DNA of 60,880 nt, the filler included, from Sanchytrium tribonematis (lineage: Eukaryota): NCBI GenBank assembly GCA_018985235.1. It is 8 parts of 8 records of this genome, joined end to end, with 100 filler letters (N's around TTAATTAATTAA, not from the genome) between each part and the next. Parts side by side here need not be neighbours in the genome. Positions count along the whole stretch, not along the records: positions 1 to 7,645 come from JADGIG010000426.1; positions 7,746 to 15,357 come from JADGIG010000427.1; positions 15,458 to 23,027 come from JADGIG010000429.1; positions 23,128 to 30,612 come from JADGIG010000431.1; positions 30,713 to 38,195 come from JADGIG010000432.1; positions 38,296 to 45,776 come from JADGIG010000433.1; positions 45,877 to 53,336 come from JADGIG010000434.1; positions 53,437 to 60,880 come from JADGIG010000435.1. One strand, given 5' to 3'. Position 1 is the stretch's first letter; each line of letters starts with the position of its first letter. The translations under genes and the position numbers were made by a program. The notes under the pieces were generated by a model. It was given only the letters and a program-made list of their open reading frames with translations, did no database searches and had not been told where the DNA came from. Positions 3,879-58,574 of the stretch are shown piece after piece.

Positions 3879-4959
3879 ATGGATTTCATTGAGAAAAGTT
3901 TTCTGCAAATACCTATTGAACAACTGAAAAAGAGCAACCGAATAACCTTGAAATGGATCGAAAAAGAAATCAAACAAACTCAGGTTTATAACAAAGATCG
4001 TTTAAAGAAGTTAAAAAACAAATTAGATTCAACTACACAAGAGGAAATTACAAACTCAGATATTGTAGATCAAAGAATTCAACACTTAGATGGCATATCA
4101 AATAACAATGAATTAGAACTAAATACTAGATTAAATCGGTGGTTAGTGGATTACTTTGTTTATCTAAAATGCTACCAATCTGCTCAATTTTTAATGGAGA
4201 ATGCCAATTTATCAAGTTTATGCGATGTTGAACTATTCAAAGAATTGCAATTAATTACTCAAAAATTAGAAAACCAGAATTGCGACCTTTTATTAAAGTG
4301 GTGCTCTGACAATCGCAGCTTGTTAAAAAAATCAAAATCAACTTTAGAATTCAAATGTAGACAGCAGGAGTATGTTCATTTAATCAAAAAGAAACAAATT
4401 ATGCAAGCCATCGACTATGCAAGAGAGCATTTTTCTTCGTTTGCGAGTGATCATCAACAGGATATTTATCTATTGATGGGTCTATTAACCACTCAATTAA
4501 AAACTAATTGCCTCGTTTACAAAAATCTTTTAGATGAGAAACAGTGGGACAAATTAGTCGCTCAATTTCAAACCGACTTTGCAAATATCCATGGATTAAC
4601 ACAACATCCCATTTTAATTCTATCCTTACAAGCAGGTCTTGCAGCTTTAAAAACAAATTCATGTCACCCAGATAAGCATCCCCATTGTCCAGTTTGCACT
4701 AAAGATTTGTTTGAGTTTTCCAAAAAGTTACCATCTTCGCATGTTACAAATACCGTATTACGTTGTCCTATTACTGGTGCAATCATGAATGAGCATAATT
4801 TACCAATGGTTTTACCATCCGGCTTTGTCATGAGCGAACAGGTTCTGATTTCTCATATAGGCTTGTCAAGAAATGCTAAAAGCTAGTGGCCATATTACCT
4901 GTCGACGGACATTGCGACAATTTCAATACAAAGAACTTCGGAAAGCTTTTATCACATAA
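3879..4959 (+). CDS. FYV10: GID/CTLH complex RING subunit MAEA/Fyv10; exons 3879-4841 and 4861-4959
   Basis: LisH-CTLH-CRA (LKWCSDNRSLLKK..STLEFK.RQQEY, LQAGLAALKT, CPVC, MNEHNLPMVLPSG). Splicing restores a MAEA-like end ACQEMLKASGHITCRRT..ELRKAFIT*. Confidence 0.88.
4842..4860 (+). other. 19-nt spliceosomal intron (gttctgatttctcatatag)
   Basis: GT-AG; removal restores the conserved MAEA C-terminus. Confidence 0.85.
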
Positions 4960-4962
4960 AAT

Positions 4963-5622
4963 TTATTTAATTTTTTTGAGCCTGGTTTCTACTGTTCTCA
5001 CTTTTGTTCCCATTTCTAAAGCATCTTTGCCGGTTTTGTTAAGGCGATCATTTTGATCAGCTAATTCAGAGCTCATCATTGTCGACATTTCCTTTAGTCT
5101 ACGAACAGAGTCAGACATATACGATAAATTTCTGGATATTTCTTCTTCGTGAACATCATGAGTCTCATCAGGAGCAACATGGTCTCTATCAAAAGATGAG
5201 TCATGTCTTGAACCAGATTTTGGAATTCTTGCTACTCTGCTAGAAGTTTCCGCCTTTTTAGTGATCTCATATCTCTTGACCTCTTCAATTTTTTTCTCTT
5301 CTTTTTTCAAATTACGTTTTCTTTTCCAGTTTGTGACAATTTTACCTGGATTTAAAGAACTCACAATAAAGTTCTTGTTTAATTGTTTCAAATCTTCTGT
5401 TCTATTAACAGCTTTATCAGCGTTAAGTGAAACTTTAGTAATGCCCACCTCGACATTTGAAAGTTGATTAGATTGTTGTCCCAAAGACGTTAAATTTTGC
5501 TCCGCCATATGTTCTGATTCCTTCAATCTTTTGACTGTCTGTCGAGACGATTCAAGTGATTTGAGCTTAGTCTGCTCGATTCTATCATTCATTAATTCAA
5601 TGTCAAATTCTTCGTCGATCAT
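4963..5622 (-). CDS. SEC9: SNAP-25/Sec9-like Qbc t-SNARE
   Basis: Two SNARE coiled coils (SLESSRQTV..LGQQSNQLSNVE; EEEISRNL..LKEMSTMMSSELADQNDRL). First ATG at 5622. Confidence 0.8.
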   Translation of the reverse strand: MIDEEFDIELMNDRIEQTKLKSLESSRQTVKRLKESEHMAEQNLTSLGQQSNQLSNVEVGITKVSLNADKAVNRTEDLKQLNKNFIVSSLNPGKIVTNWKRKRNLKKEEKKIEEVKRYEITKKAETSSRVARIPKSGSRHDSSFDRDHVAPDETHDVHEEEISRNLSYMSDSVRRLKEMSTMMSSELADQNDRLNKTGKDALEMGTKVRTVETRLKKIK

Positions 5623-7645: not shown

Positions 7646-7745
7646 NNNNNNNNNNNNNNNNNNNNNNNNNNNNNNNNNNNNNNNNNNNNTTAATTAATTA
7701 ANNNNNNNNNNNNNNNNNNNNNNNNNNNNNNNNNNNNNNNNNNNN
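7646..7745. other. Artificial contig spacer
   Basis: N44-TTAATTAATTAA-N44 (six-frame stop linker). Confidence 0.99.
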
Positions 7746-8300
7746 AACCAACACAAGGGAATATACGTCAATATAGATGGTGGACTCAACATTTTTTCGC
7801 ACTCTTGGCTAAATTTTGGCGTGAATCGTGCAAAGTCACGTTACGAAACTCATCTGACTACCAATAATACTATCTGTGGGGTCCCCGACCCATGCTCTTT
7901 AAGAACTTTGAATAACAGATGTATAAAGCCAGGAATAGATTTACCAAAATGCCGAGAGCATCTCAAGACCTTGATCAAGATCGATAATTGCAGCAGTTTA
8001 TGTTATGAAAAAGAAGAAATTAAAATTCCAAAGGATTTATCTTGGTATGGTGCGAGTGAATTTCATTACGCTGTATTCGACACTATGAGGGATAACCACA
8101 TTAATGTCGCAGAAACAAGAGTATCTGTCCAAAACAGATGCCGAACAGATATGACGTTTGAATGCTTTCATGCAATGTATACTTTGGAAATTTTGGATTC
8201 ATTGGGAATTATTGAGATTAACATTCCACTGAGAATTAAGAATCAAGACATAACTTGGACGAGAGGGTTTGCGGCTTATTATTTCTTTCAAGAACACTAA
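7746..8300 (+). CDS. GDA1/CD39 apyrase (NTPDase), C-terminal fragment
   Basis: FSHSWLNFGVNRA, YGASEFHY, CFHAMY and ACR5-like ITWTRG; open from the contig edge. Confidence 0.7.
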   Translation, partial: NQHKGIYVNIDGGLNIFSHSWLNFGVNRAKSRYETHLTTNNTICGVPDPCSLRTLNNRCIKPGIDLPKCREHLKTLIKIDNCSSLCYEKEEIKIPKDLSWYGASEFHYAVFDTMRDNHINVAETRVSVQNRCRTDMTFECFHAMYTLEILDSLGIIEINIPLRIKNQDITWTRGFAAYYFFQEH

Positions 8301-8353
8301 TTTAATTAAAAGAACTAATTTAATAAAGATTTGCAAATTCCTCCGTGTATCTA

Positions 8354-9532
8354 ATGGTTCGAGTCAGAGCTAAAAAAATCATTAAAAGTAAAACTGAATT
8401 CTATGATAGAACAAAAAGTGTAAGCTCGTCAAAGCTGATTCCAATTCAAGGTCGCCAAATGGAAATTGATGAGATATTGACAAAATGTAATTTGGCCATC
8501 AAACAAAAATCTAAACTGAGTTTATATATAAGTGGTCAGCCTGGTCAAGGAAAAACACTTTCAGTTAACCATTCTGTTCAGAAGTTGCTGAAAAAAAACA
8601 ATAGAACACATTTAAAATATATTTCTGTCAACGGGATGAAAACCAAAAAAGCTGAACAAATATTCGTACATATATGGAGAGAAATAACATCTTCCAAATC
8701 CAGGATTAGCCATAAAACGGCACTAGAAAGATTGGAAGATTGGCTTTCTCAAGCTAATCGACCTTTCTTATTAATATTACTGGATGAAATTGATGGACTT
8801 TTAAATTCATCTCAATCAACGATTTACCACATCTTTGAATGGGTTCAGCGATACGATAGGATTATACTCATATCAATTTCAAATACATTCGATTTACCAG
8901 AAAAGGTCTTTAAACAAAAGATTGTTTCTCGAGTTGGACACGAAAGAATTGATTTCAATCCCTACAAAGCAGATGAACTTGTTGAAATCGCAAAAACCCA
9001 TATTGTTCGATCTTCTGATGCTGTCGAAAAGAGTGGTTCTCTAATTATCCAAAATGTTACTTTTGAGAAACAAGCTTTACGACTCTGTGCAAGTAAAGTC
9101 GCTTCTATTACGGCCGATGCAAGAAAAATGTTAAATATCTGCGAAATAATTATACATATGGCTAAAGATGAAAAAGTCACCAAAATTGATGTCAGATATG
9201 CGCACAAGTCATTGAGTAATATATTTTCGCAACCTTGCGATCAATTCTTAAGGAGCTCAATATCTTTGAATCCTCTTTACAAGATAGCATTGTCCAAAAT
9301 AATGGACGCTTGTGATATCAAAGGATCTTTGGAATATAAAGACATTGTGCAGCAATTTTGGGATGTTTATGCGGAGCATAGTAGGCCATTACAAGACGAA
9401 TGTGTCATTAGGCAATACTTCACTACACTTTTAAACTCAAACGTGTTGCAAGCTGTTGATAAATCTTATACTGAGCACTATTCAAAATCCCAGTATCGAT
9501 GGAACGGCTCTTTGACTTTTTTATTGAAATAA
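8354..9532 (+). CDS. ORC1: Origin recognition complex subunit 1 (ORC1/CDC6 AAA+), without BAH domain
   Basis: YISGQPGQGKT, LLDEIDGL, ISNTFDLPE, SRVG, KVASITADARKMLNIC. Confidence 0.8.
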   Translation: MVRVRAKKIIKSKTEFYDRTKSVSSSKLIPIQGRQMEIDEILTKCNLAIKQKSKLSLYISGQPGQGKTLSVNHSVQKLLKKNNRTHLKYISVNGMKTKKAEQIFVHIWREITSSKSRISHKTALERLEDWLSQANRPFLLILLDEIDGLLNSSQSTIYHIFEWVQRYDRIILISISNTFDLPEKVFKQKIVSRVGHERIDFNPYKADELVEIAKTHIVRSSDAVEKSGSLIIQNVTFEKQALRLCASKVASITADARKMLNICEIIIHMAKDEKVTKIDVRYAHKSLSNIFSQPCDQFLRSSISLNPLYKIALSKIMDACDIKGSLEYKDIVQQFWDVYAEHSRPLQDECVIRQYFTTLLNSNVLQAVDKSYTEHYSKSQYRWNGSLTFLLK

Positions 9533-9551
9533 ATTCCCTGTTTTATATCTT

Positions 9552-10322
9552 ATGACTTCGATTTTAGATCTGACTCAACTTGCAAAACAATCTATTTGTC
9601 AAATTTATTTATATTCAGACCAACTAGAAGATCCTGTAGAGAATGAATTTGTCCCACTCTCTGTAAATACTCCTGCTGGATTTACAATTTTTAATGAATT
9701 TGAATTGGCAACCATTCCTGCAATTTTGTTTTATGGACTGAAAAATACCAATGATGCAACAGTTTTAGCTGTTCATTATATCGACAAAGCTACACATACG
9801 CATAATACAACCAAATGTGAAGAATTATTGTTGGCTTGTCAAGCTCAAACAAGGCCAGTGTATCAGCAGATACAATTAAACAATGAAAGGCTTCAGGTTT
9901 TGAGAGAGCAAGAGCAAAAGCTCCAGCAATCTATTGAAAAAGACATGGAGCGGCAACAGAAAAAAGAAGTTTTTAAATCATGGTTTGATGATAGAAAGAA
10001 GCAAAGACTAGCGTATAAAAGCGATAAATTTGAAGGCGACATTATTCAGTTGAAATTTAGAGTCTTTAATGGGAGTACCTATCAGCAAGAGTTTTTGAAA
10101 ACGCACACGGTCAGAAACTTGTATGACTTTATTAATCATTTTGATATATTTCAAGAAGATTCTATGGATAAGGAAGAAAAAGAGCATTTTTTCAAACTGC
10201 ATAAAGACCATGGGCATGGATTTGTTATATCTTCGATGTTTCCAAAGCAGGAACTGACAGACATGTCACTTTCTCTCGAGCAAGTCGGAGTTCAAGGCAT
10301 GTTAATTGTTGAAGAGGTATAA
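9552..10322 (+). CDS. UBX-domain Cdc48/p97 cofactor (FAF1/FAF2-like)
   Basis: LREQEQ..QSIEKD coiled coil, then UBX (LKFR..GS..QEF..TVRNLYDFI, SMFPK). Confidence 0.75.
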   Translation: MTSILDLTQLAKQSICQIYLYSDQLEDPVENEFVPLSVNTPAGFTIFNEFELATIPAILFYGLKNTNDATVLAVHYIDKATHTHNTTKCEELLLACQAQTRPVYQQIQLNNERLQVLREQEQKLQQSIEKDMERQQKKEVFKSWFDDRKKQRLAYKSDKFEGDIIQLKFRVFNGSTYQQEFLKTHTVRNLYDFINHFDIFQEDSMDKEEKEHFFKLHKDHGHGFVISSMFPKQELTDMSLSLEQVGVQGMLIVEEV

Positions 10323-10328
10323 ATAAAT

Positions 10329-11460
10329 TTACTCCTTCTTCTGCTTGCTAAATAAGCGATTATCATCTATATTAAATGCCCAGAATTCATTAAAATGGCC
10401 AGAAACAAGTGCCACAATACATGGCAAGATAGTTACAGCAGGAGACAAATACAAAAGTGCAGGCTAAATAAATGTAAAATACTTGAGCGTGCTTATATGT
10501 GTGCATAACGTAAATGGTTGTCCCGAGACCCAGAACATATGCAAAAAGTCCTGTTATGAAATATCTGTTGGTATTTTTGACTCTATCAAAGAATTTACAG
10601 AGAGCGATAAACACACCAGGGATGACAATATCACCAAGGCCAAGTAAAGCAAATTTCCACTCGCCGTCTTCTAAAATTTTCCTGGGATATTGAAGTTTAA
10701 TGGGGCCATCGACTTTTGTTGCCACACTTACCATTACATCAGTTCCAAACACCCAAAAAATATCATAAAAGAAGAGTCCCCACATTAGAAGTATCCCCGT
10801 TTTTACAGAATCGAGATCCAATAGAGCGATTGCTTGAACTGAAAATGCAAAAGCTAGAATATTTGACAATATCCAGTGACCGTAAATGAAATAAGATGCA
10901 GCAATGCCAAGACTGATTAAAATTAGCAATAAACTTGCTGAACTCATACTCATTTGAATAATTTCTTCATCTCCATCTTTTTTAACTTGAGAATATGTCA
11001 ATTTATATTCTGAGCAACCTAGAAAAATAAGTATTTTCCCCACCGTATCTTCAATGAGACGCCAGGTAGCAAAAGTACCAAACATGGTAAAATACCCTTT
11101 CAGAGCTGTATTGATATCCACAACAGAAAAAATAATGTATAAACCGAACAAAGTTATAGACGCTGTAATCGGAAACCACAAAGCGTCAGAAGTTGTCATG
11201 GATTGACCTAGAACCGGTTTTTTCTTTTGAGAGCATGCAATATAAATCGGTATTATAGCGGACACAAAAATAAGAGTATATGCAAATAAATCCTCAAATT
11301 CTATCATGAAAAATTCAGTATATTCAATTGAAATGCTCTTTGCTTGTTCAAAATAGTTGCCAAGATATTTTGACGTCAAATTTAAGTATACCTCAAGCTC
11401 TTGTTTCCATTCAGTAGCATTAATTCCAGTGGAATTAAGAGTGGTAAAGTTACTAGACAT
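10329..11460 (-). CDS. SPP: Signal peptide peptidase (A22B); exons 11460-10483 and 10463-10329
   Basis: YDIFWVF and LGLGDIVIPG; splicing restores the QPALLYL motif. Confidence 0.93.
10464..10482 (-). other. 19-nt intron (gtattttacatttatttag)
   Basis: Removal joins HAQ|PALLYLSP, the invariant SPP motif. Confidence 0.95.
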
Positions 11461-11489
11461 CTCCAAAGTTTTGAAAAATAATCAAGTAT

Positions 11490-12380
11490 TTATTCAGCGG
11501 CATCAAATGCTTTCTTGTAGGAAGCTTTCTTTTGAGCAACTTTGTTCTTTCTTTCTGCCAAGCTCAATGGTCTCTTTCTGTTCTTGTTGACTAGCGCTTT
11601 AGCCTTTGCAATATCAACCTTTGCCTTAGGAACGTCTGGATTTGCCCTGATTTTGGAATGAGCATTTTTGTATAATGCTTCTAGACCAGCTGGCTCAACT
11701 TTTTCTTTAATAAATTTCGAAAATTGCTTTTTGTACTTTTCTGGGTCTTCTTCCTTCAACATAGTCATGTAATCTGAGATATGACCTCCAAAAATGTATT
11801 TTTTTAATACTTCGGTTTCCAATTCTTTGCTTTCAGAGTCAAAACCAGGAAATCTGTTTTCCGAGTGTGGAACGTAAAGACCACCATCTACAGCTCCTTT
11901 AAGTGCTGCAAAAATCTTTGATCCAGTAGTTGTTCGTCGTAATCCAACATCTAAGAAGCATTTGAAGGGTTGTACTTCACCGTCAGCTTCTACTAAATAG
12001 AACTCACCAGTTGCTTCTTGGCCTTCAAATTGAGTCAATTTCAATTTCTTCAAAAGCCTGCGCGCTACCAAAAGACCAGTGCAATAAGCAGCAGGCCAGT
12101 TACCCAATCCAGCTTTAATTCCAAAATGTTCCAACTCAGAAGAATTTGCTTGAGCTAATACAACATCTCCAACAACTTTAGCTTTTACAATCTGGGCAAT
12201 TACATGCTTATTGGTGAATCTGACGACAAGTCTATATTTTGCAGCATTATACTTGTTTTTAGCTTGAATGACTAGCTTCTTACGTTGGTAGTAATCAGTT
12301 TTACCCTCTCTTCTACGTCTATACTTGGTTTGATATCTCTTGTAGTAGGCAGTTGTTTTGTACTCTTTAACTAAAGGCAT
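11490..12380 (-). CDS. RPL5: 60S ribosomal protein L5 (uL18)
   Basis: YRRRREGKTDY, KYRLVVRFTN, AYCTGLL, DGGLYVPHS. Confidence 0.98.
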   Translation of the reverse strand: MPLVKEYKTTAYYKRYQTKYRRRREGKTDYYQRKKLVIQAKNKYNAAKYRLVVRFTNKHVIAQIVKAKVVGDVVLAQANSSELEHFGIKAGLGNWPAAYCTGLLVARRLLKKLKLTQFEGQEATGEFYLVEADGEVQPFKCFLDVGLRRTTTGSKIFAALKGAVDGGLYVPHSENRFPGFDSESKELETEVLKKYIFGGHISDYMTMLKEEDPEKYKKQFSKFIKEKVEPAGLEALYKNAHSKIRANPDVPKAKVDIAKAKALVNKNRKRPLSLAERKNKVAQKKASYKKAFDAAE

Positions 12381-12500
12381 TGGTCAGCATTTGATATTTT
12401 GAGTTTGTTTGCAAACACGTGTTTCTTATCCCCAACTGTGGAATTTAACCTATCGGAGACGAGCTAATTAATTTTTGGCAAAACTATATTTTGTAACAAG

Positions 12501-14082
12501 ATGTTCCGATCTCTGGTTCGCAATGCAATTGCAAAATCAAAAGAGCAACAAATGATCTCAAGAATTAAAGCCAAACAAGATGCTTCAAAGCTCGGTGGTG
12601 GATCAGCAGCTATTGAAAAACAACATTCTAAAGGAAAATTAACTGCTCGAGAAAGAATTTATTTACTTCTTGATAATAATTCTTTTTCAGAAACTGATAT
12701 GTTGGTTGAGCACGATTGCAATGACTTTGGAATGGAAAATAAGAAGTTTCCTGGCGATGGAGTTGTTACAGGAAGTGGTACAATCAATGGGCGGCCTGTT
12801 TATGTTTTCTCTCAAGATTTTACAGTATTTGGAGGCTCGCTGTCTAAAACACATGCTCAGAAGATTTGCAAAATTATGGACCACGCAGTACAAAATCAAT
12901 GTCCTATTATTGGATTGAATGATTCGGGTGGGGCCAGAATTCAAGAGGGAGTTGATTCCCTTGCCGGATATGCTGATATTTTCTTAAAAAATGTTTTAAG
13001 TAGTGGTGTTGTACCTCAGCTTTCAATGATTACAGGACCTTGTGCTGGTGGTGCTGTTTATTCCCCTGCATTGACAGATTTTACTTTTATGGTACGAGAC
13101 ACCTCTCATCTTTTCGTTACTGGACCAGATGTAGTCAAAGCCGTAACAAATGAGGTGGTTTCCTTTGAAGAACTTGGTGGGGCATCTGTTCATACCAGCA
13201 AATCTGGAGTTGCCCATCTAGCTTTTGAGAATGATATTGAAGCTATGGCTAAACTCAGAGAATTTTTTGACTTTTTACCTCTGAGCAACAAGCATCAACC
13301 TCCGATTAAATATACCTCTGATCCAATTGATAGGGCAGATAATGCTCTGGATATTATAGTACCAGCAGATTCCTCAAAAGCCTATGACATGAAGCATGTT
13401 ATAACCAGAATAGTTGACGATGGTAATTTCTTTGAAATTATGCCCAATTACGCAAAAAATATGATTATAGGCTTCTCAAGAGTATTTATAAATAATGTAG
13501 ATGAATGGGCAAACAGTCGGAATTGTCGCAAATCAGCCTAATATTTCTTCTGGTGTTTTGGACATCAATTCTTCAATCAAAGCTGCAAGATGGGTAAGAT
13601 TTTGCGATGCTTTCAACATTCCAATTTTAACATTCGTGGATGTTCCTGGATTTCTTCCTGGCGTTGCTCAAGAGCATAATGGCATTATTCGACATGGTGC
13701 TAAGCTTTTGTACGCATATGCTGAAGCTACTGTCCCTAAAATTACAATTATCACAAGAAAGGCATATGGAGGAGCATATGATGTTATGAGTAGTAAACAT
13801 CTACGAGGAGACGTCAATTACGGCTGGCCTACCGGTGAAATTGCAGTAATGGGAGCTAAAGGTGCAGTCGAAATTATTTTTAGAAAAGACAAAAATATCG
13901 CACAACAAGAAAAGGAATACACTGAAATTTTTGCAAATCCACTGCCCGCAGCACAAAGAGGTTTTCTTGACGACGTTATAATGCCAAAAACTACGAGACA
14001 TAGAGTAATTAAGGACTTGAAAATCTTAAGAAACAAACAGTTGAAAAATCCATGGAAAAAGCACGGAAACATTCCTTTATAA
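12501..14082 (+). CDS. PCCB: Propionyl-CoA carboxylase beta chain; exons 12501-13481 and 13501-14082
   Basis: [44 protein letters not shown]; splice joins [17 protein letters not shown]. Confidence 0.95.
13482..13500 (+). other. 19-nt intron (gtatttataaataatgtag)
   Basis: Joins two PCCB ORFs in frame at a conserved site. Confidence 0.93.
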
Positions 14083-14087
14083 ATAGT

Positions 14088-18009: not shown

Positions 18010-18039
18010 CCAATAGCTGTAGGACTGCTGGCTATTTAA
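18010..18039 (+). promoter_or_regulatory. CCAAT + CTATTTAA promoter of peptide gene 2
   Basis: Same -52/-30 spacing. Confidence 0.65.
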
Positions 18040-18061
18040 ACAGACTGATTCTTTTACATTA

Positions 18062-18235
18062 ATGTTATTCATTACATCCATTGCTGCGCTTCCAACTCCA
18101 ATGACTGTTGAAGATTGCCAAAGAATCATGAATAATGCTGTTAGGAAAGGTATCTTGAGTGTCACTAACAAGAATGTTTTTATTGCGAATTGTGAATACA
18201 AATTCACTCCAGAATACAACTCTGGTAAAAAATAA
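18062..18235 (+). CDS. Small secreted two-Cys peptide, paralog 2 (57 aa)
   Basis: MLFITSIAALPTPMTVEDCQRIMNNAVRKGILSVTNKNVFIANCEYKFTPEYNSGKK*; not in ORF track. Confidence 0.85.
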   Translation: MLFITSIAALPTPMTVEDCQRIMNNAVRKGILSVTNKNVFIANCEYKFTPEYNSGKK

Positions 18236-25647: not shown

Positions 25648-26360
25648 ATGTTGACCGAAATTTATTTGACATTTTGGATTTGGATTTCTTTTTTAACAAT
25701 TACAGTTAATGCAATACCATGGGTAGACTATCGAATTAGCCATCAAGAGCAAGTGACGAAGCTCATAACTAGAAACTTAGTGGGCATTCAAGTTGGCGAA
25801 GCGATATTGCTTTATAGCTTTGCAATTATTTTAGTGATTCTAATGGTGGGTGTGGTGTATTTTGGAGACGAGGGACAATGCGTGGTTCCCTTAAAGATTG
25901 ATATTGAGCAGATTGAGTATGTGAAAGTACCTTGCAAAATTTTGGAAGGTTCAGTAACTAACAGATTTAAAAAAAGGCGAAATTTGAAGGTTGAAGTGAT
26001 GAAACCTAAAAGACAGGATTCAAAGGCTGCAAATTCAATTGTTGACCCTCTTTGGGATTGGGATAATATGTTTAATAAGTCTGAGCTGGAAAAAACTGAG
26101 GATATGATGAAATGCTTTCAAAAAATTGTTCAGGGTTTAATTTAATTTATTTAGAAATGACACCAAAAGTGGAAAATATTCAAAAGAAAATTGGAGGTAC
26201 GGAATATGAGATTTTAAAAGCAAGAATTTTGTTTAGATTTGATATCATGTACAGGGCTGAAAAGAATTCTAATCTTGAGAAATTAAATTTCTTATTTCTA
26301 GAAAAATTAATCGATGAAGCAAAGCATACCCAGGAATTAATCAATCAGGCATTAGTTTAA
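25648..26360 (+). CDS. Hypothetical membrane protein; exons 25648-26134 and 26155-26360
   Basis: Two N-terminal hydrophobic helices; a 20-nt intron fuses two ORF-track ORFs in frame (VQ-E-MTPK). Confidence 0.6.
26135..26154 (+). other. 20-nt intron (gtttaatttaatttatttag)
   Basis: Same TTTATTTAG 3' end as the SPP, eRF1 and PGM3 introns; restores frame. Confidence 0.7.
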
Positions 26361-31076: not shown

Positions 31077-33762
31077 TTATTGAGTATCGTAATCCACAAT
31101 TTTAGTTTTTTTCTTCAATTTCTTGAGCCACATATTGAAATGAACAACTCCAATCACAACAACGCCACTCACCAATAATTTGAAAATCATATTTAAATTC
31201 CACTTGATACTGAATATGGGCACTCCAAATTTCACAATTCCATTTCCAACAAATGATGCAATAGTGCTCTGCTGTATCACTAAATGGGTACTATTTATTT
31301 CAATTGATGTTGAAATGGTGAATTTATTCCGATAAATGACTCGAGTAGCAACTAAATTATAATAATTTACTTGGATTTTCAGAACTCATGATTGGAATAG
31401 TTGAAAGTGTTGGAGACTCGGATGTAATTTGTAAATTCAATGACCGAGTAGTTAAATAGTACTTCTTACACATGGTATAATTGCTAATATGAGTACTATT
31501 TAATAATGGACTGAATGATAAATCACAATCAGCTAATAAATTGGTAGAATTGATTTTTAAATCATATACATTTGATTTACCCAATAGGACTTTCATGGGA
31601 CTTTGTAATACGAGTACATCATCAAATGAATTGTTTTCATCCCTAAAATCTCCCAATACGACAATTTTAAGAGACGCAGGAAATGTTGGAAATGGACCTG
31701 TTAAAGAATTCCCCTGAATTTGCAATTCTTCTAGATTGGGTGGTAAACTAGTAATGGGACCAGTCAAATTGCAAAAACTCAATCTCAATACCTTTAAACT
31801 ATTAGGAAGTACTGGCCAAGGTTGATTCAAATTAATGCTTGACACATGAAGTGTCTCTAAACCCTCTGCAAATAATGGCAATGGGCCACCAATAGATCCA
31901 AATATCTGAATCAATTTAATGTTTCCAGGAATATTTTCTGGTATTTTAGCAGTTTGATTGTATATAGAAGCAATTAAAAGACTCTCTAAAGAAAATGGAA
32001 GATCTGAAATTAAAAATGCATATCCATTATTTGTCTTTGCTGTATTGGATATTCTAATTTCAGTCACATTTTGACCAGTGCAACTGAATCCACCATAATA
32101 CGAATCACAACAATTATCATCCACATTTGAATAATCAATTCCAATATTTTGAAATAATTTTTTAGTATCTGAGCACGATTTAAGTTTTATTGGATCTGTA
32201 TATCGTTGATTCACATGGATACAGCTTGTAAAATTGGTTAAACCATTTGCTGCAATATTATTCCATGAAACATCACAGCCAAAATTGGTGATTTGTCCCA
32301 AAGTGAGTATTTTATCAATAAAATTATGCTTAAAATTGAACAATAAATTTGGAGTTTGTGAGAAATAAGTCATATCTACCACTCCTTTAATCTGATTGTA
32401 AGAAACATCAATATAAAACAAGGATTTTGCACTCCATCCATTTTCAAAAGAATCCAAATGATTATAAGCTACTGCCAAATAACCAAGGCCATTGACCAGT
32501 GGCATACTGCCATTAATCTCATTTGATTTAATAAAAAGCATTAACAAATTACTTGGCAATTTGCCTTTCATTCCCCCACTGAAATGATTCAAAGAAAAGT
32601 CAATTTCCGACAGTCGTGACAGCCCTGACAAATCTGGAAATACACTTGATATTTGGTTGAACCTTAAATCGATATTATTTAATAATGGTGGTAGCAAAGA
32701 AGTATTAAATGTGCCATTTAAATTACCACTTCCATTAAATCGAATTGAAACAATACGATTTTCAGTGCAACTTATTTGATGGTATTTTTCATCACAGCAA
32801 TTGGATATTCCAGCAAGATAATTAAAGTAGTCCGGACTTGCCAAATGCATGTTTAATTGTTTGTAAAATAAAATCAAATTTGAACAATCTGGAGAAGGTG
32901 CTACAGTCGCATTTTTAAAGTTGAATTTACATCCACGTGCTTGTAAACCAGTCAAATCACCCGCATTATCTGGTTCAAGATACACTTCAGACGTATAACA
33001 CGCTGTGATTCGATCAGGATGTTTTACAAACAATCTATCAAATTTAGTATCAGTTCCTAAACCCAAATGGGTTATATTTGGTGAGGTTATTGTGAGATTT
33101 CCTGATGCAATGCTCTCATGTAGTTCCAAATATCTCATATTTTTAAAATCTTGTGAGATAAACCCAGTTAAATCACACTTGCAATAAATCAAATTTAGTA
33201 CTTCTATCGTGTCTGGCAATATTCTTTTCAATGGAATTCTCAAATTACTGAAATACGAATTGTGCAATTCTTTCAAATTTGTCATATTAAGTGGCAGAAT
33301 ATCAAATGTCAAAATTGGTGTTTCTAAATATTCCAATGAATCGGGCATTTTTATTGTCAATGGTTGATTGAAATTCGTTGTTCTAAGATATGTTATGTTT
33401 GGTAACACATCCATTTGTATTTGAATCGTATATCCATAATATAAATCTAATACTTTTAGAGTTTCTGGTAATTTTGTGATTGAAAAGTCTTTTTCACAAT
33501 ATAAGAGGGCCAAAACGCGTAAATTTGATGGAAATACAAGAGATGGATTGGTTGGTTTACCATATTCACCAATAAAATCCCAATGTAATTCAATAACTCG
33601 ATCATTTTCACATACTACGCCATATCCCAAACAACAATCTTTGTCATATTGGACAGTATATTCTGGATACAAGTACTTCATATCTAGATCTTGTGCTAGT
33701 TTGACTACTACGGGACAGTCTATGGAAACAGAAATCAAAAGAGAGAGAAGAAGCGCGTACAT
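31077..33762 (-). CDS. Multi-module LRR receptor-like protein; exons 33762-31371 and 31351-31077
   Basis: Three C..CC..C..(R)VxxI caps each followed by LRRs and a Cys cap. Splicing adds VGNG..TM..KKLKKK, similar to the 29233 gene's C-terminus. Confidence 0.82.
31352..31370 (-). other. 19-nt intron (gtaaattattataatttag)
   Basis: Links the LRR ORF in frame to the TM exon. Confidence 0.82.
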
Positions 33763-34384: not shown

Positions 34385-35523
34385 ATGTTCTTTCAACTCG
34401 TGTGTGCCTCACTCTTTAAAGACCACTTTGACTCGTTAAAATGGAAGAAATCTCAAGAAGATGGTATTATGACCATCAAAAAACACAATCTATTGGATAT
34501 TAAAGGCTTTCAGACCACGACTGACTACAAATTCTACCATTATTTAACCCCAGTAGATGCCACACCTGCATTTCCATCCAAAAAAGACAGCCTCATCCTC
34601 CAATTCGCAGTCACATTCGAACAAGACATTGATTGTGGCGGAGGATATCTCAAGGTCATTCCGACCACTCCATTGAAAGAATTCAATTCCGATAGTAAAT
34701 ATCACATCATGTTTGGCCCAGATATCTGTGGACCCACTAAAAAAGTCCATTTTATCATCCATTACAAGGGTGAAAATCACCAATTAAAACACCATTTAAG
34801 TGCCCCTCACGACACTTTAATGCACATCTACACTCTAGAAATCACTGGTAAACAAGAATACAAGGTATATGTCGACAACAAAGTCATTAAAGAAGGTAAA
34901 ATTGTGGATGATTTTGATGTTTTGCCACCCAAACAAATTTTGGATCCTAAAGCCAAAAAACCAGAAGATTGGGATGATAGAATGAAAATAGATGATCCTA
35001 AAGATGAAAAACCAGATGATTGGGATAATGTTGAACAATATATTGATGATCCAGATGCAGAAAAGCCAGAAAATTGGGATGATGAAATGGATGGGACTTG
35101 GGAACCTGCACAAATTGTAAACCCAGAATACAAGGGAGAATGGAAGGCAAAACAAATTGATAATCCAAAATACAAGGGAGAATGGTAAATATTAACTGAT
35201 TTAGGGAGCATCCGATGATTAAAAATCCAGATTATAAATATGATGATTCTATTGTGAATTATGAGATTGGTGGACTTGCAATTGATGTATGGCAAGTAAA
35301 AGCAGGTACATTATACAGCCATGTATTATTAACTCGTGATTTGAAAGAAGCAGAAAAGGAAAGAGAAGAATTGATGGAATTAAAAGAAAAAGAAGAAGAA
35401 TTGAAAAAAGAAAAGGAAAAGAAGGATGCTGATGAAAAGGCAGAGAAATTAGAAAAGACTGAAGAGAAAGAAGACAAGGAGGAAGAGGAAGAAGAGGAAG
35501 AAGAAGAAAAGGAAGAATTGTAA
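34385..35523 (+). CDS. CALR: Calreticulin; exons 34385-35184 and 35205-35523
   Basis: IDCGGGYLK, IMFGPDICG, KPEDWD repeats, acidic tail ending KEEL; splice gives GEW|EHPMIKNPDY. Confidence 0.95.
35185..35204 (+). other. 20-nt intron (gtaaatattaactgatttag)
   Basis: Restores the conserved third P-domain repeat. Confidence 0.93.
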
Positions 35524-43277: not shown

Positions 43278-44391
43278 CTACTGAACTACCACACTCCAAG
43301 GATGGTCAATTTCTCCATATTGAATAGATAAGATTTTTTCGTTGAAATATTTGGCAAGCTCGCCAGCCTCACTTTTAGGGTTTTTGGGATCTAGTGGGAT
43401 TTTTACATCTTTCCCATTGTAATTTATGTTCTTGATTGGTGCTACAATACACGCAGTTCCAGCTCCAAACATTTCGATAATCTTAATTAAAAAATTATAC
43501 CTCATTTTTCTTTTGTTTTTCTAGAATGTCTGTCATGGTAATTTTACCTTCTCTAACCTTAATTCCATTTTCTTGAGCCAATTTTAAAATGCTATCTCGA
43601 GTGACTCCTGGTAAAATAGTCCCGTCTTTTAGTGGAGGAGTAACTAGTTCAGCTTCCCCATTGTTTTTCCAGTAAACAAATACATTCATGGTTCCTACCT
43701 CTGACAACTCATCATCCACAAGCCATAATATCTGAGAATGGCCCTTTTCCTGGGACAATTTTTGTGGAAGAATAGTTGGTCCATAATTTGACCCTATTTT
43801 GTAGGCACCAGAGCCACCTCTCCATGCCCTAGCGTACTCTTTTGTAGCGTACAAACTGACTGCTTTAAATCCCTCTTTGAAATACGGCCCAACTGGTGAG
43901 CAGATTACAAATAATTTGGCCTTTAAAGATGGAGAGACACCCAATGATGCGGAAGTACCAATTACAGTTGGCCTTAGATAAAGTGAAAATCCTTTTCGGT
44001 CCGGTATAAATTTGGAATCTACTTTGCATAATTCTTTGATATAATGCAGAAGCTCGGATTCTTTAATGGTGGGTAATGCAAGTCTTTCACAAGAAGATTT
44101 TAGTCTTTTCATGTTCATATCCGGCCTAAATAATCGTATCTTTCCGGATTTATCTTTGTAAGCTTTTAATCCTTCAAAGCATTCGGTCGCGTAATGAAAA
44201 ACTGAGCAGCTTGGATCTAATGATAATTTTTGGTATGGTATAATTCTGGGATCTTTCCATTCTTTATCGAAATCAATCTCAAACATATGATCACTAAACT
44301 GCTGTCCGAATACTAGTGTGTCTAGATTTGGCAAAGATTTCGGGCTTGTTGTTTTCTTTATCAAGATTTTACTCAAGCTTCTTCGAAACAT
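43278..44391 (-). CDS. BAT1: Branched-chain amino acid aminotransferase; exons 44391-43501 and 43481-43278
   Basis: FSDHM, FEGLKAY, LYLRPT, KIGSNYG, EVGTMN, ILPGVTR; splice gives E|IIEMFGAGTA. Confidence 0.95.
43482..43500 (-). other. 19-nt intron (gtataattttttaattaag)
   Basis: Joins the BCAT ORFs in frame before EMFGAGTA. Confidence 0.92.
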
Positions 44392-45876: not shown

Positions 45877-45878
45877 CT

Positions 45879-45960
45879 GGGGGGGGGGAATTGTATTTTT
45901 ATAGTCGAAATCCTATCCAATTCCCCCGGGGGAATTGATTAGGAGGGGGGAATTGGATGG
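45879..45960. repeat. G-rich GGGGGAATTG repeats with a perfect 20-bp palindrome
   Basis: CAATTCCCCCGGGGGAATTG at 45918-45937; three G(n)AATTG copies at a contig edge. Confidence 0.7.
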
Positions 45961-46108
45961 GTAAACACTTTACTTAACAATACCCGAATAAAGTGAGTGG
46001 TCGTTCTATTTGAGTAAATTCGTTAGAGCAAAACTTTAAGTCTCAGATCAAGCCAATTCACCATAAAAAACAAAATGGGGCCAAATATATGATAATGTAT
46101 CCAAATAT

Positions 46109-50769: not shown

Positions 50770-51646
50770 TTATAAAATCATAAATAGCGCAACTATTGAT
50801 AAAATCCCACAAGAGATAGAAGTAGCTGAATTGATGCCTGTTTCTGTAGCTTTTGGGATACTTTCAAACAATGACATTTGTGAGGCGTAACTCAAGTAAG
50901 AATTCAACAAGGTGTTTTCTACAGGAACAGCGGTCTAAATTAGAAGAAATTACATCTGTATTAACTTCGCTTTCCGTGGACTCAATTTGGCTTTCTACAG
51001 ATTGGAGCAAAAGTGTGGAGGCACTTTCCATATCTGTTTGTGTGTTACTTGCATAAGTGTTTGATGTCCAAATATTTGTCCAAGGCTCTGCAACGCTGCT
51101 AGAAATAGTTGATTGTAAAGTGGTGTGGCCTTGGATTTCTTTAGTATCTATCTCGCTACTTGAGATGTCTAAAGAATTTTTATTTGTAGCATCGAGTGAT
51201 GTTGCAGTGCTTGTGGCTTCTGGTATTGATACGGTGACACTATCCGAAATGTCAAAGGCCGAACTACTTGATGAAACAACCATTTGAAAAGTACTTGAAG
51301 TTGATGTGTCTACCAGTACAGTGGTTGACATTTGAGATGTGTTTAACTCGCTCGAAGACGAATCTTGGCTAGTAGTCCCAATCGCATCAATGGTGGATGA
51401 TGTTTCAGAAAGTTCAGAGGATGTATCAATCTGGATCGTGCTTGTGCTGACTGTAGATTCAATAGTGGTGTAAACCCAAGTGGAAGATTCTAAAGCAATT
51501 TCAGTTGTAGAAGCAAACTCAATGATGGAGGAGCTTGATTCCATATTCCAAATTAAATTGGAGGAGGTGCTTGATTCAATCGCGTCACTTTCTCCAGCAC
51601 TAAACAATAAACTGCTAATGTCTAAACCGTATACAATCGCGAGCAT
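50770..51646 (-). CDS. Putative GPI-anchored Ser/Thr-rich mucin-like protein; exons 51646-50954 and 50934-50770
   Basis: S/T-rich body; splicing gives C-terminal NSATSISCGILSIVALFMIL*. Confidence 0.75.
50935..50953 (-). other. 19-nt intron (gtaatttcttctaatttag)
   Basis: Contains CTAAT branch-like motif; removal yields a GPI-signal-like end. Confidence 0.8.
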
Positions 51647-51749: not shown

Positions 51750-53071
51750 ATGAGTTCTTCAACAAATGAAGAAGAAATACAGATGTTCAAAATAAAGAAA
51801 TTGGTTAGACATTTAACAGATGTAAGAGGGAATGGCACATCTATGATATCTTTAATTATGCCACCGAATACTCAATTACCGCTTATTACGAAAATGTTGG
51901 CAGATGAATACGGCACGGCCACGAATATAAAGAGCAGAGTCAACAAATTATCTGTTCTAGCTGCTATTACTAGTGCACAACAAAGACTTAAATTATATAA
52001 GGATATTCCTCCAAATGGATTGATTTTATACACGGGAACCATAGATGACCATGGTAAAGATAAAAAAGTTACAATTGATTTCGAACCATTTAAACCCATT
52101 AACACCAGTATGTATATGTGTGATAATAAATTTCACACAGAAGCTTTAAGTGAGTTGTTGACGAGCGATGATAAATTTGGATTTATTGTTATGGACGGTA
52201 ATGGATCTCTTTTTGGCACACTTTCTGGAAACGCACGTGAGATTTTGCAAAAAATTTCAGTAGAACTCCCAAAAAAGCACGGTCGTGGTGGTCAATCCGC
52301 GATGAGATTTGCGCGATTGAGAGAGGAAAAACGTCACAATTATGTTCGTAAAGTTTCTGAACTATCAGTCCAGAATTTTATCACCAATGATCAGCCAAAT
52401 GTCAGTGGTCTAATTTTAGCAGGAAGTGCTGATTTTAAAAATGTTTTGGAACAATCTGATTTATTTGATCCACGTCTTAAAGCAATTGTCATCAAGGTTG
52501 TAGACACAAGTTATGGTGGCGAGAATGGATTTAATCAAGCAATTACTTTGTCGCAAGAAGTTTTGTCAAATGTTAAATTTGTGCGAGAAAAGCAACTATT
52601 GGAAAAGTTTTTTGAGGAAATTTCAAAGGATACTGGCAAATATGTTTTTGGTGTAGACGACACTTTGAAGGGTCTCGATATGGGTGCTGTGGAAACTCTG
52701 ATTGTATTTGAAAATCTCGATGTTGAAAGGTTGATTTTTATTTATTTAGGTACCAAGTGAGAGATTCTAATGGCGCGGAGCAAATACTGATGCTGACACC
52801 CAGTCAAAAGCAAGAGCATAGTTTTAAGGATTCAGAAGGCAATGACCTCGAAATAATTGAGTCAGTCACTCTCGTCGAATGGCTTGCAGAAAATTACAAG
52901 AATTTTGGAACAACCTTGGAATTTGTTACCGATAAAAGTAGTGAAGGAAATCAATTTGTTAAAGGTATAGGTGGTATTGGAGGTATTTTGAGATATCAAG
53001 TTGACTTTACTGAGCTTGCAGCATATGACGAAGAGTCTGATGATTATTTTTCAGATGACGATTTCATTTAA
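51750..53071 (+). CDS. SUP45: Eukaryotic release factor 1; exons 51750-52729 and 52750-53071
   Basis: [23 protein letters not shown]; splice gives DVER|YQVRD. Confidence 0.97.
52730..52749 (+). other. 20-nt intron (gttgatttttatttatttag)
   Basis: Joins the eRF1 ORFs in frame. Confidence 0.93.
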
Positions 53072-56652: not shown

Positions 56653-57013
56653 ATTGTTCAGGGGAATTTGCCAAATATTTATCTAGATTTTGGACCAATC
56701 ACGTTGATTGGATATCCTGTAAGTCATTGCCGATCAATCTGACTGGGCGGCGTTGATTTGACACAAATTTCGCCATTTTTCAGTCTGCACATGTATACGA
56801 ATTGATGTGCTTGAAATTGTATTTGGATATAATAATTCATTTCCAAATTAGACAATTCTTTCCAACAGGTAAAATTCAAAAGTTTCGAAGTATCATGGCT
56901 TAAATAACTTAGTCTTTTATAATTCATTAAATTTAGTCAACCAGTATATCATTGAACCGCAAGGGTGGATGAGATAATTTGTAACAAAATATTAACTTTA
57001 TCGTGCAAAATCT

Positions 57014-58574
57014 TTATTGAAATTCCAAAGGCTTATCTCCCAACCCGCACATGTCAAAAACAAGACCTGCAACCTTATATCCTAATTCCTTGCACTTTTC
57101 TTCCGTTTCATGTTCTGCATAGACTCGTACAACATCTTCAGTTCCACTCGGACGGACAAACGATCTTCCCCCACTTTTGGTCAAAATGTCTATTTTGCTT
57201 TGTATACCATTCGGCTCAACCAGTGTCTGTTCAGCATTAGTTGTCTTAAAAGCATATCGATCCTTCACCTTAACTTTAATCAACATCGAAGGCATATCAT
57301 TGTATAAATTATCCCAGGATTCTGGAGTCATTTTAAGAGCCTGTAAAAAGTACAAAACCATAAAAAGATCACTTAAAGCATCGCCTGTGGTTTGATTTAC
57401 CAATTGGATTAATGCATGTAGTTTCGGACTAAATAAACTTAAATTACTATTTCTGTGCTTCCTTCTTAAGAGAATCGCTAAATAGGACAGTCCCGTGCCC
57501 ATTGGCTTCAAAGTAAATGCCAACATCATAAGATTCCGCTTGATGATGTAAATGCTTGACACCAGTAGGTGTAAAATCAACAGGAATACCTAGCGATTTA
57601 AGGTACTTGGTGCTGCTCCCATTAGCGTATGCAGTTTGAACAACACCCATTTTAACTTTAATTTTGTACTCTTTTAATAAAGCATCAATTCCTTTGGCAC
57701 ATAAAGCACTTATTCTATCACCATCTAGCAAATGAAAACCATTTTTTATATAATAAAAAACAATACGGTCAGCATCTCCATCAAAACTTGCTCCAAGTTG
57801 ACCATGTTTTACTGGAGTATCATCAATGTTTGATGGTGCTTGAACCTTGGTCTTGACGAAATCTGCACCACAATTGGAATTGAGAACCCCATCATTATTA
57901 AATTGGTGAATATTATACTCAGGCATATAAAATTGCATAGTGTGTAGTAAAAGTCCTAATTTAGGAGCTCCAATTCCGTTCGAGCCATCGACAGAAACTT
58001 TCACGTAAGGATCATTCAAGTCATCAGTCAGTAATTTAAAATTTGAGCAAATAGTTTTATAATATTCCTTCTCAACATTATCAATTGTGTTATGAGTATT
58101 ATAATAAAGGGTTGCCCAGTGTAGTTGTGGAGTGGTCACAAGACCTAAATCAAAGACAGTTGCTCCACCATGTTTTAAAGCTTCGAGTATATGTCCCATA
58201 AGTCTTGGACCGCTTTCTCTAGTGTCTCTTCCGACTACGACAATTGGATTTGTATCACCAATTGACTCTTTAAGCTTCAGTTCGTTCACCACTTGGCTCA
58301 TTTGCAAATTCACCATATCGGTAGCATATTGTTCCCATTTTGTTTCGAGCATATGCCCTGTTGGATCAACAATTTTTACACCATTATCTTCAGCAGGGTT
58401 ATGCGAAGCCGTTAACATTATTCCTATGGCTTGCTTTTGATGGGAACTACGTAATGCCGCCAATCGTCCCACAGCGTATACAATGTAATCTAGTCGGCTG
58501 TGGTGATCCCGAAAGCCAGCAGTTCCATACTTAACGTTTTTGGGCTGTTGCAAAGATTTTAAATATTCCTCCAT
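57014..58574 (-). CDS. PGM3: Phosphoacetylglucosamine mutase; exons 58574-57448 and 57428-57014
   Basis: YGTAGFR, TASHNP, DGDADR, YFEANGHGT, NQTTGDALSD, RPSGTED. Confidence 0.96.
57429..57447 (-). other. 19-nt intron (gtaatttaagtttatttag)
   Basis: Removes an in-frame TAG and joins both PGM3 ORFs. Confidence 0.9.

What the first reader, a model, noticed from the sequence alone, without database searches (positions are those of the whole stretch)
4842..57447. Ten 19-20-nt spliceosomal introns with a fixed-position branch-point motif
Seen: GT-AG introns at 4842-4860, 10464-10482, 13482-13500, 26135-26154, 31352-31370, 35185-35204, 43482-43500, 50935-50953, 52730-52749 and 57429-57447. Seven are 19 nt and three are 20 nt. 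Seven restore conserved proteins (MAEA, SPP QPALLY, PCCB, calreticulin, BCAT, eRF1, PGM3). All ten end T-N-A-T-N-W-A-G, i.e. an invariant A at -6 with T at -8 and -5, while the 5' end conserves little beyond GTW. Established: introns this small are known mainly from chlorarachniophyte nucleomorphs and heterotrich ciliates; typical fungal introns are several times longer. Inference: a fungal lineage with a minimal, length-measuring spliceosome and a fused branch point/3' splice site.
Basis: partly seen in the sequence, partly recalled or inferred. Interest (0 to 1): 0.88.

Follow-up and report, generated by a model that had tools for sequence, protein, structure and literature searches.

The report
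Sanchytrid fungi have 19-base introns
Genes of this algae-parasitising fungus (a sanchytrid, related to Amoeboradix) are interrupted by 19-20-base segments that are very likely spliced out as introns, shorter than the typical introns I found reported for any fungus or animal, and the public protein sets of these fungi stop short at these points.

Summary
Confirmed at DNA level. All ten GT..AG segments lie at the stated coordinates (five per strand; seven 19 nt, three 20 nt) and all end TNATNWAG. In four genes tested without any motif, the stated segment scores best against homologue profiles; BCAT and calreticulin join flush with solved structures. The organism is a sanchytrid fungus (PCCB clade with Amoeboradix gromovi, 100/100). 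All 8 orthologues from relatives (eRF1, PCCB, SPP) break at the same residue; the 4 resolvable ones imply 19-nt introns with A forced at -6. The 3' end is a degenerate U2 branch site abutting the AG, as in Encephalitozoon, Yarrowia and Stentor, so the motif is known; the length is new for fungi (Encephalitozoon minimum 22 nt). The published sanchytrid proteomes were called without splicing, and I found no description of these introns. No RNA was available: splicing and the branch A are inferred. 'Minimal spliceosome' is not supported: Amoeboradix annotations list U1, U2, U2AF, U5 and branching proteins; Slu7 and Prp18 are not listed (a lead only). Added: an eleventh candidate, and all ten sit in the last 40% of their genes. 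The scan's earlier notes report tiny introns in Rozella, none in sanchytrids.

The parts
4842..4860 (+). 19-nt intron, phase 0, MAEA/Fyv10 (GID/CTLH subunit) gene, after codon 321; 32 codons follow
   Evidence: best of 103 GT/GC-AG candidates against a 60-homologue profile, 375.9 bits vs 343.3 unspliced; alignment flush
10464..10482 (-). 19-nt intron, phase 0, signal peptide peptidase gene, just before the PAL motif
   Evidence: Pfam PF04258 positions 252|253 contiguous; best of 83 candidates; same break in 3 of 3 relatives
13482..13500 (+). 19-nt intron, phase 0, propionyl-CoA carboxylase beta gene, after codon 327
   Evidence: Pfam PF01039 positions 290|291 contiguous; best of 88 candidates, 1027 vs 608 bits unspliced; same break in 3 of 3 relatives
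   Evidence: same motif, highest-scoring unlisted short GT-AG; no homologue test succeeded
26135..26154 (+). 20-nt intron, phase 1, unnamed membrane-protein gene; removal adds 68 codons
   Evidence: top candidate at this locus in a motif-free coding-score scan; no homologue
31352..31370 (-). 19-nt intron, phase 1, leucine-rich-repeat protein gene; removal adds 91 codons ending in a hydrophobic stretch and basic tail
   Evidence: ORF extension and motif; the neighbouring LRR-like gene at 29233-30660 ends similarly; no homologue test
35185..35204 (+). 20-nt intron, phase 2, calreticulin gene
   Evidence: exon ends map to residues 270 and 274 of chain 6eny_G with exactly three codons between
43482..43500 (-). 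19-nt intron, phase 0, branched-chain aminotransferase gene; ends AAG
   Evidence: exon 1 residue 93 of 100 = 2cog_A 317, exon 2 residue 2 = 326, so the join is flush
50935..50953 (-). 19-nt intron, phase 0, Ser/Thr-rich secreted protein gene; removal adds 54 codons ending in a hydrophobic tail that looks like a GPI-anchor signal (recalled pattern)
   Evidence: ORF extension and motif; no homologue
52730..52749 (+). 20-nt intron, phase 2, eRF1 gene, after codon 326
   Evidence: best of 143 candidates, 752 vs 634 bits unspliced; same break in 2 of 2 relatives, 19 nt in A. gromovi
57429..57447 (-). 19-nt intron, phase 2, phosphoacetylglucosamine mutase (PGM3/AGM1) gene
   Evidence: both exons match 2dka_A in different frames; top candidate in the coding-score scan; boundaries not fixed by homology

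Best explanation
These 19-20-base GT-AG segments interrupt conserved genes of a sanchytrid fungus at the same positions as in its relatives, and are likely major-spliceosome (U2-type) introns whose branch point is predicted to be the invariant A six bases from the 3' end. Shown: the segments, the motif, the restored proteins, the shared breaks in relatives. Inferred mechanism: U1/U6 read little more than GTW; U2 pairs with a degenerate (C/T)TNAT site at -9 to -5 and bulges the A at -6; branching gives a loop of 14-15 nt and a 5-nt tail; the AG right behind the branch site is docked without scanning, so no polypyrimidine tract fits. With so little sequence information, distance likely supplies specificity: 5 nt from branch A to intron end, 13-14 nt from the 5' G to the branch A. 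The spliceosome is likely broadly complete rather than minimal, and may have lost Slu7 and Prp18, which yeast does not need when the branch-to-acceptor distance is short.
For: Motif-free profile test ranks the stated intron first in 4 of 4 genes (of 143, 88, 83 and 103 candidates), 7-34 bits above the next intron and 8-14 bits above the best plain 1-2-nt frameshift. Flush joins for BCAT and calreticulin. All 8 orthologues found in the clade end or leave frame at the same residue. In 4 of the 8 the read-through tail fixes a 19-nt intron; the genetic code forces A at -6 in 4 of 4, C at -9 in 3 and T at -8 in 1, while other intron positions differ; the same method recovered the window's own lengths in 3 of 3 controls. 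Pairing to the U2 GUAGUA motif at the -6 register beat interior shuffles (155 of 100,000 reached it) and -6 was best or tied in 8 of 11 (overlaps with the invariant-T result). The same 3' geometry is published for E. cuniculi, Y. lipolytica and Stentor. A. gromovi's annotation lists Prp8, Brr2, SF3B1, both U2AF subunits, U1-70K, Prp22, Prp17, Cwc25, Isy1 and CCDC94. Slu7/Prp18 dispensability at short distance: PMC10711555.
Against: No transcript evidence of any kind; the branch A is not mapped. Only 60.9 kb and 10-11 introns were seen, with no whole genome, so longer or in-frame (18, 21 nt) introns elsewhere are not excluded; a leave-one-out matrix would have missed the MAEA intron. Four of 8 relative tails stop inside the intron and are unresolved; one (P0245) also fits 18 nt with A at -5. 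The resolved A. gromovi PCCB case rests on three downstream codons. In 3 of 11 introns another A pairs better with canonical U2 than -6 does. The relatives' introns are orthologues of three window introns, so they are not independent draws. The absence of Slu7/Prp18 rests on a published automatic annotation of 3,755 rows for about half the proteome, where my recalled identifier for Prp16 also found nothing.
Confidence: 0.76

Rival explanations
1. They are real spliceosomal introns, but the A at -6 is part of an extended acceptor motif read by a protein (as with nematode TTTCAG), and branching is elsewhere or variable.
For: Several introns have other As that pair as well or better with canonical U2 (3 of 11 better); -4 and -3 are also strongly T (8 and 9 of 10), so the conserved block could be a 3' motif. 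In myxozoan short introns the putative branch As move with intron length.
Against: C at -9, T at -8, A at -6 and pyrimidine at -5 reproduce the WCTRAY branch consensus in register; the A stays at -6 in both 19- and 20-nt introns.
Confidence: 0.12
2. They are true introns that are spliced inefficiently or conditionally, as in microsporidia, so most transcripts retain them; the 3'-biased position would limit the damage or serve regulation.
For: Short E. cuniculi introns are spliced at under 20% on average; Mikrocytos 16- and 17-nt introns at 63% and 37%. All ten lie in the last 40% of the coding sequence.
Against: Retention truncates eRF1, PCCB, BCAT, PGM3 and the SPP PAL motif, and the exon-2 frames are intact and conserved, so substantial splicing must occur. 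This rival differs in degree, not kind.
Confidence: 0.07
3. The segments stay in the mRNA and are bypassed by programmed ribosomal frameshifting or hopping, or are removed by a non-spliceosomal route.
For: No RNA data exclude it; all ten lengths are non-multiples of three.
Against: Exact GT..AG ends in 10 of 10; clean removal beats the best 1-2-nt frameshift by 8-14 bits in 4 of 4 genes; no shared slippery site is visible; in-frame stops lie within or at the start of several segments; spliceosomal genes are annotated in the sister genus. Non-3n lengths are what an ORF-break search would preferentially find.
Confidence: 0.03
4. Assembly errors or pseudogene frameshifts, with GT..AG ends chosen after the fact.
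For: The window is a fragmented assembly; 614 GT..AG strings of 19-20 nt exist in it. Three of the ten have no homologue test.
Against: Relatives at 74-86% protein identity break at the identical residue; Logan contigs of run X1 bridge four introns without gaps (possibly the same source, so not independent); length excess of about 11 at 19-20 nt.
Confidence: 0.02

Closest known systems
Short introns of the microsporidian Encephalitozoon cuniculi (PMC3629993, PMC2483917, PMC6349667; passages read)
   Same: Holomycotan parasite, intron-poor, GT-AG, branch consensus CTAAYTT, which read with a following AG puts the A at -6 (my reading of the consensus).
   Different: 22-76 nt, strict 5' and branch motifs, strongly reduced spliceosome, 5'-biased positions in microsporidia. 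Here 19-20 nt, degenerate motifs, 3'-biased positions in metabolic and housekeeping genes, many spliceosomal proteins annotated in the sister genus.
Tiny introns of Stentor coeruleus and other heterotrichs (PMC9505925; passages read)
   Same: AU-rich, two adjacent lengths, branch A fixed with a 5-nt 3' tail, weak 5' site (GUA), spliceosome largely complete.
   Different: 15-16 nt, thousands of introns, free-living ciliate; independent origin.
Chlorarachniophyte nucleomorph introns (18-21 nt) and Mikrocytos mackini introns (16-17 nt) (PMC10245619; passages read)
   Same: Same size class and narrow range in reduced genomes.
   Different: Nucleomorph is intron-rich and a relic nucleus; Mikrocytos has only 17-19 spliceosomal proteins, highly conserved intron sequence and no introns in metabolic genes, whereas PCCB, BCAT and PGM3 carry them here.
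Yarrowia lipolytica, Trichomonas and Giardia fused branch point-AG introns (PMC2483917; passages read)
   Same: No polypyrimidine tract; fixed branch-to-AG distance; in Y. lipolytica the A also falls at -6.
   Different: Long introns (Y. lipolytica median 204 nt) with a strong ACTAAC consensus.
Myxobolid and dicyemid short introns (PMC13644364; parts 1-2 of 3 read)
   Same: Parasitic opisthokonts with ultra-short introns and a 5' site reduced to GTa.
   Different: Median 22-27 nt, broad range including 20-nt classes, 3' signal reduced to AG, putative branch As shift with length.

Membership tests
U2-type (major) spliceosomal introns | GT 5' end and AG 3' end | tested here: met
   10 of 10
U2-type (major) spliceosomal introns | Removal restores a conserved reading frame exactly | tested here: met
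   6 of 10 flush against homologues; PGM3 frame only (55, 56); 3 without homologues
U2-type (major) spliceosomal introns | Branch-site consensus able to pair with U2 GUAGUA | tested here: met
   TNAT at -8..-5 in 10 of 10, C/T at -9 in 8 of 10; register test; forced letters in relatives. Sequence fit only.
U2-type (major) spliceosomal introns | Excised from RNA through a lariat at that A | not testable with these tools
   no RNA holder listed
U2-type (major) spliceosomal introns | Organism encodes the major spliceosome (proteins and U1, U2, U4, U5, U6) | tested here: inconclusive
   proteins annotated in the sister genus A. gromovi; no snRNA in the window; no genome held
U12-type (minor) introns | Extended conserved 5' site and strong branch motif (recalled consensus) | tested here: not met
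   5' positions 3-9 are only A/T-rich
Ultrasmall fixed-length intron systems (Stentor, nucleomorph, Mikrocytos) | Nearly all introns of the genome fall in a range of 2-4 lengths under about 22 nt | tested here: inconclusive
   10-11 of 10-11 seen on 8 contigs are 19-20 nt and no other length is in excess; 4 of 4 resolved relatives 19 nt; genome-wide test impossible
Reduced-spliceosome systems (microsporidia, Mikrocytos) | Loss of most spliceosomal proteins | tested here: not met
   sister genus lists U1-70K, a U1A/U2B''-type protein, a Prp40-type protein, both U2AF subunits, SF3B1, Prp8, Brr2, Prp22, Prp17, Cwc25, Isy1, CCDC94 and cactin; spot checks of a published table, not a full survey, and not this species
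Sanchytriomycota (host organism) | Forms a clade with a described sanchytrid | tested here: met
   PCCB tree of 30 selected rows: window, A. gromovi and two unnamed ENA proteins, 100/100; nearest named eRF1, PCCB and SPP are A. gromovi at 83, 85 and 82%

The most novel reading that the evidence does not exclude
The whole phylum Sanchytriomycota uses one class of 19-20-nt introns, the shortest typical intron length in fungi and animals, spliced by a largely intact spliceosome that lost Slu7 and Prp18 as the branch point fused to the acceptor; the introns survive almost only as single, 3'-proximal introns, the reverse of the 5' bias of other intron-poor fungi, possibly because such weak introns are recognised with help from 3'-end processing.
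Probability: 0.25. Interest if true: 0.85.

Novelty: new variant of a known kind. Interest (0 to 1): 0.68.

Why it matters
It adds an independent origin of ultrasmall introns, inside the zoosporic fungi and next to Blastocladiomycota, with the same 5-nt branch-to-end tail as Stentor and a similar end to Encephalitozoon. That points to a shared structural floor of the spliceosome and makes it testable by comparison with close relatives that have ordinary introns. It also has a practical effect: the sanchytrid proteomes were called by translating ORFs straight from contigs, so intron-bearing genes (10-11 among roughly 50 here) are truncated or split in public sets, as seen for eRF1, PCCB and SPP. 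Protein counts and domain-loss inferences for this phylum may need revisiting.

Tried and rejected
No whole genome is held. Sequencing-run search: no RNA holder listed; one DNA holder, possibly the source. The 50%-cluster search with MAEA gave useful outgroups but no separate sanchytrid relative. A motif-free codon-score scan was weak: the stated intron ranked first at 4 loci and second at 2, was not in the printed top four for eRF1, and MAEA, SPP and LRR fell below thresholds; the high-scoring long candidates I inspected mostly fuse neighbouring genes and I rejected them. Rfam found no snRNA in the window. Pfam did not name the genes at 22837, 26135, 31352 (exon 2) or 50935; the protein atlas gave no answer. 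Candidate 31022-31040 (+) has the motif but lies in a 22-codon ORF; left as probable chance. Other 19-20-nt motif hits (11468, 37082, 41367, 48857, 54686) are antisense, intergenic or inside intact ORFs and fit the chance rate. Host alga, ciliate, microsporidian or aphelid origin rejected by the tree and nearest homologues. PMC3809491 (constrained microsporidian introns) is not held.
Full report
What the window is. It is 60,880 bases, 34.4% GC, standard code, gene-dense (56 non-overlapping stop-to-stop ORFs of 100 codons or more cover 51,858 of about 60,180 bases). Seven spacers of Ns around a 12-base stop linker divide it into eight pieces of falling length, 7,645 to 7,444 bases; I read these as eight separate contigs, so the ten introns sample seven contigs. 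The nearest named homologues of eRF1, PCCB and signal peptide peptidase (SPP) are EukProt proteins of Amoeboradix gromovi at 83, 85 and 82% identity (the SPP protein is assigned by sharing contig name NODE_581 with the PCCB one). A PCCB tree of 30 rows that I chose groups the window, A. gromovi and two unnamed ENA proteins at 100/100. The organism is therefore a sanchytrid but not A. gromovi. Its GC is close to the 34.64% published for the other described species, Sanchytrium tribonematis, which makes that species likely but unconfirmed.

The observation. All ten segments are at the stated coordinates, five on each strand, seven of 19 and three of 20 nt, all GT..AG. From the 3' end, T-8, A-6 and T-5 are invariant, -9 is C or T in 8 of 10, -4 is T in 8 and -3 is T in 9; the 5' end shows GTA (7) or GTT (3) and then only AT-richness. 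Shuffling the interiors produced an invariant-A column in 32 and three invariant columns in 2 of 200,000 trials. The pattern GTW..TNATNWAG occurs 12 times at 19 nt and 5 at 20 nt, against a mean of 2.8 and a maximum of 6 at the other 47 lengths from 12 to 60 (summed). The excess of about 11 matches the ten listed plus one new candidate at 22837-22855 on the minus strand, whose removal adds 20 codons. No other length class is in excess.

Are they introns? For eRF1, PCCB, SPP and MAEA I built profiles from 60 full-length homologues each (of 117, 116, 116 and 149 available, first 60 in the length range) and scored every GT-AG or GC-AG of 10-150 nt near the break, using no motif. The stated intron ranked first of 143, 88, 83 and 103 candidates, 6.9, 33.7, 14.8 and 8.3 bits above the next, 7.5-14 bits above the best plain frameshift and 33-419 bits above the unspliced ORF; the alignments run through the junctions without gaps. 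Pfam positions are contiguous for SPP (252|253) and PCCB (290|291). BCAT and calreticulin exons map flush onto solved structures. PGM3 needs the frame change, but 10 residues stand where Candida has 21, so the boundaries are not fixed by homology. The three remaining introns have no homologue test; two of them add a hydrophobic C-terminal anchor-like tail. Logan contigs of DNA run X1 bridge the SPP, PCCB, 50935 and eRF1 introns without gaps, but X1 may be the source.

Relatives. Public proteins called on unspliced DNA read into introns. All eight orthologues found in the clade leave the family sequence at the same residue as the window's: eRF1 in A. gromovi and one ENA record, PCCB in A. gromovi and two ENA records, SPP likewise. 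I fitted intron lengths 12-30 to each tail under the genetic code. The method recovered the window's own 19, 19 and 20 nt in 3 of 3 controls. Four relatives resolve, all to 19 nt: A. gromovi eRF1 (score 32 against 0 for 20 nt), A. gromovi PCCB (only three downstream codons), and PCCB and SPP of one ENA record (13 and 24 codons restored). The code forces A at -6 in all four, C at -9 and a pyrimidine at -5 in three, and T at -8 and -5 in the fourth, while the rest of the interiors differ. The other four stop inside the intron and are unresolved; one of them also fits 18 nt with A at -5. The eRF1 intron is 20 nt here and 19 nt in A. gromovi with A at -6 in both, so the A is anchored to the 3' end. 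These are orthologues of three window introns, not independent samples.

How it most likely works. The (C/T)TNAT block matches the WCTRAY branch consensus of intron-poor eukaryotes in the register that makes -6 the branch A. Pairing to U2 GUAGUA (motif as given) at that register was reached by 155 of 100,000 shuffles, and -6 was best or tied in 8 of 11 introns; in three another A paired better. I infer a lariat loop of 14-15 nt and a 5-nt tail, direct docking of the adjacent AG, no polypyrimidine tract, and specificity supplied largely by distance. In yeast, Slu7 and Prp18 are dispensable at short branch-to-acceptor distance, Prp18 is described as a ruler imposing a minimum distance, and the shortest natural distance there is 10 nt (PMC10711555, passages); by that convention the distance here is 5. 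The published A. gromovi annotation table (3,755 rows, supplementary file 4 of PMC8371127) lists Prp8, Brr2, SF3B1, both U2AF subunits, an SF1-type KH protein, U1-70K, a U1A/U2B''-type and a Prp40-type protein, Prp22, Prp17, Cwc25, Isy1, CCDC94 and cactin. It has no entry for Slu7 or Prp18 by name or by recalled identifier, but my recalled identifier for Prp16 also found nothing, and only about half the proteome is annotated. So 'minimal spliceosome' is not supported, and loss of Slu7/Prp18 is a lead, not a result.

Position in genes. Each gene has one intron, and all ten lie at 0.63-0.91 of the coding length (mean 0.78; 579 of 1,000,000 uniform simulations reached this). Four fall after codon 321-327. 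Microsporidian introns are described as 5'-biased, and a Cryptococcus study notes that only a 5' retention bias had been observed, though terminal introns are rarely lost. Density is about 0.2 per kb of ORF, against 1.30 for Allomyces. Terminal-exon coupling to 3'-end processing is my speculation.

Comparison with what is known. Introns of this size are published for Stentor (15-16 nt, branch A at position 10 or 11, 5-nt tail), Mikrocytos (16-17 nt) and chlorarachniophyte nucleomorphs (18-21 nt). In opisthokonts the shortest I found are E. cuniculi at 22-76 nt and myxobolids with a median of 22 nt and classes down to 20. A fixed branch-to-AG distance is known in Y. lipolytica, T. vaginalis and Giardia, and E. 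cuniculi has CTAAYTT. So each element has precedent; the combination, the length and the lineage are new. The sanchytrid genome paper predicted proteins with TransDecoder on contigs (section 18 read); its main text has 'intron' once, in a reference title, and 'splic' not at all; 8 readable supplementary files mention introns only in one annotation row, while one scanned PDF and two oversized files could not be seen and might bear on this. Searches for sanchytrid names with intron terms and for tiny or shortest introns in fungi listed no description; subscription journals are largely outside the library. Papers seen as passages only: PMC10459994, PMC10245619, PMC9505925, PMC2483917, PMC6349667, PMC8476143, PMC10406608, PMC3629993, PMC2395259, PMC10711555; PMC13644364 as parts 1-2 of 3.

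Verdict. The introns are very likely real (about 0.93), the -6 branch likely (about 0.8), and a phylum-wide fixed 19-20-nt class plausible but sampled thinly. New variant of a known kind; interest 0.68. RNA evidence is the missing test.

Noticed in passing
window 22837-22855 (-): Eleventh candidate 19-nt intron with the full motif (C-9, T-8, A-6, T-5); removal extends a contig-edge ORF by 20 codons.
   Followed up: partly
all ten introns: One intron per gene, all in the last 40% of the coding sequence; four after codon 321-327 (MAEA, SPP, PCCB, eRF1). Unexplained.
   Followed up: partly
window 7646-7745 and six similar spacers: The window is eight contigs of decreasing length joined by N runs around a 12-base stop linker; genes at these joins (GDA1/CD39, a Mre11-like ORF, RPC5, Lys2-like AMP-binding enzyme) are cut, not broken.
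   Followed up: yes
window 10390-14082: SPP and PCCB share a contig in A. gromovi (NODE_581) and have matching contig lengths in two ENA records, so local gene order is kept across sanchytrids; the ENA records show at least two further unnamed sanchytrid lineages in metagenomes.
   Followed up: partly
A. gromovi annotation table, PMC8371127 supplementary file 4: Slu7 and Prp18 are not listed while many other spliceosomal proteins are; fits a very short branch-to-acceptor distance but may be annotation failure.
   Followed up: partly
window 1536-3851: NOL10-like (488-codon ORF) and Hgh1-like (276 aa, DUF383/384 hits) proteins look shorter than their usual relatives (usual lengths recalled), and intergenic spacers are often under 100 bases.
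   Followed up: no
window 27727-29214 (+): Acyltransferase-3 family membrane protein (PF01757), a family common in bacteria; origin not tested.
   Followed up: no
window 18023-18235 and 18434-18646 (+); 36721-37542 and 37677-38195 (+); 29233-33762 (-): Tandem paralogue pairs: two small secreted-looking ORFs, two multi-pass membrane ORFs and two leucine-rich-repeat surface proteins.
   Followed up: no
window 36083-36157 (+): tRNA-Val (AAC), no intron reported.
   Followed up: no
window 45877-45975: Start of contig 7 is a short dispersed repeat: many Logan contigs match it with loose ends and high summed depth.
   Followed up: no
window 7746-12660: Run X1 contigs differ from the window at 26 listed sites, some as two alleles, suggesting heterozygosity or mixed strains; none lies in an intron.
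   Followed up: no
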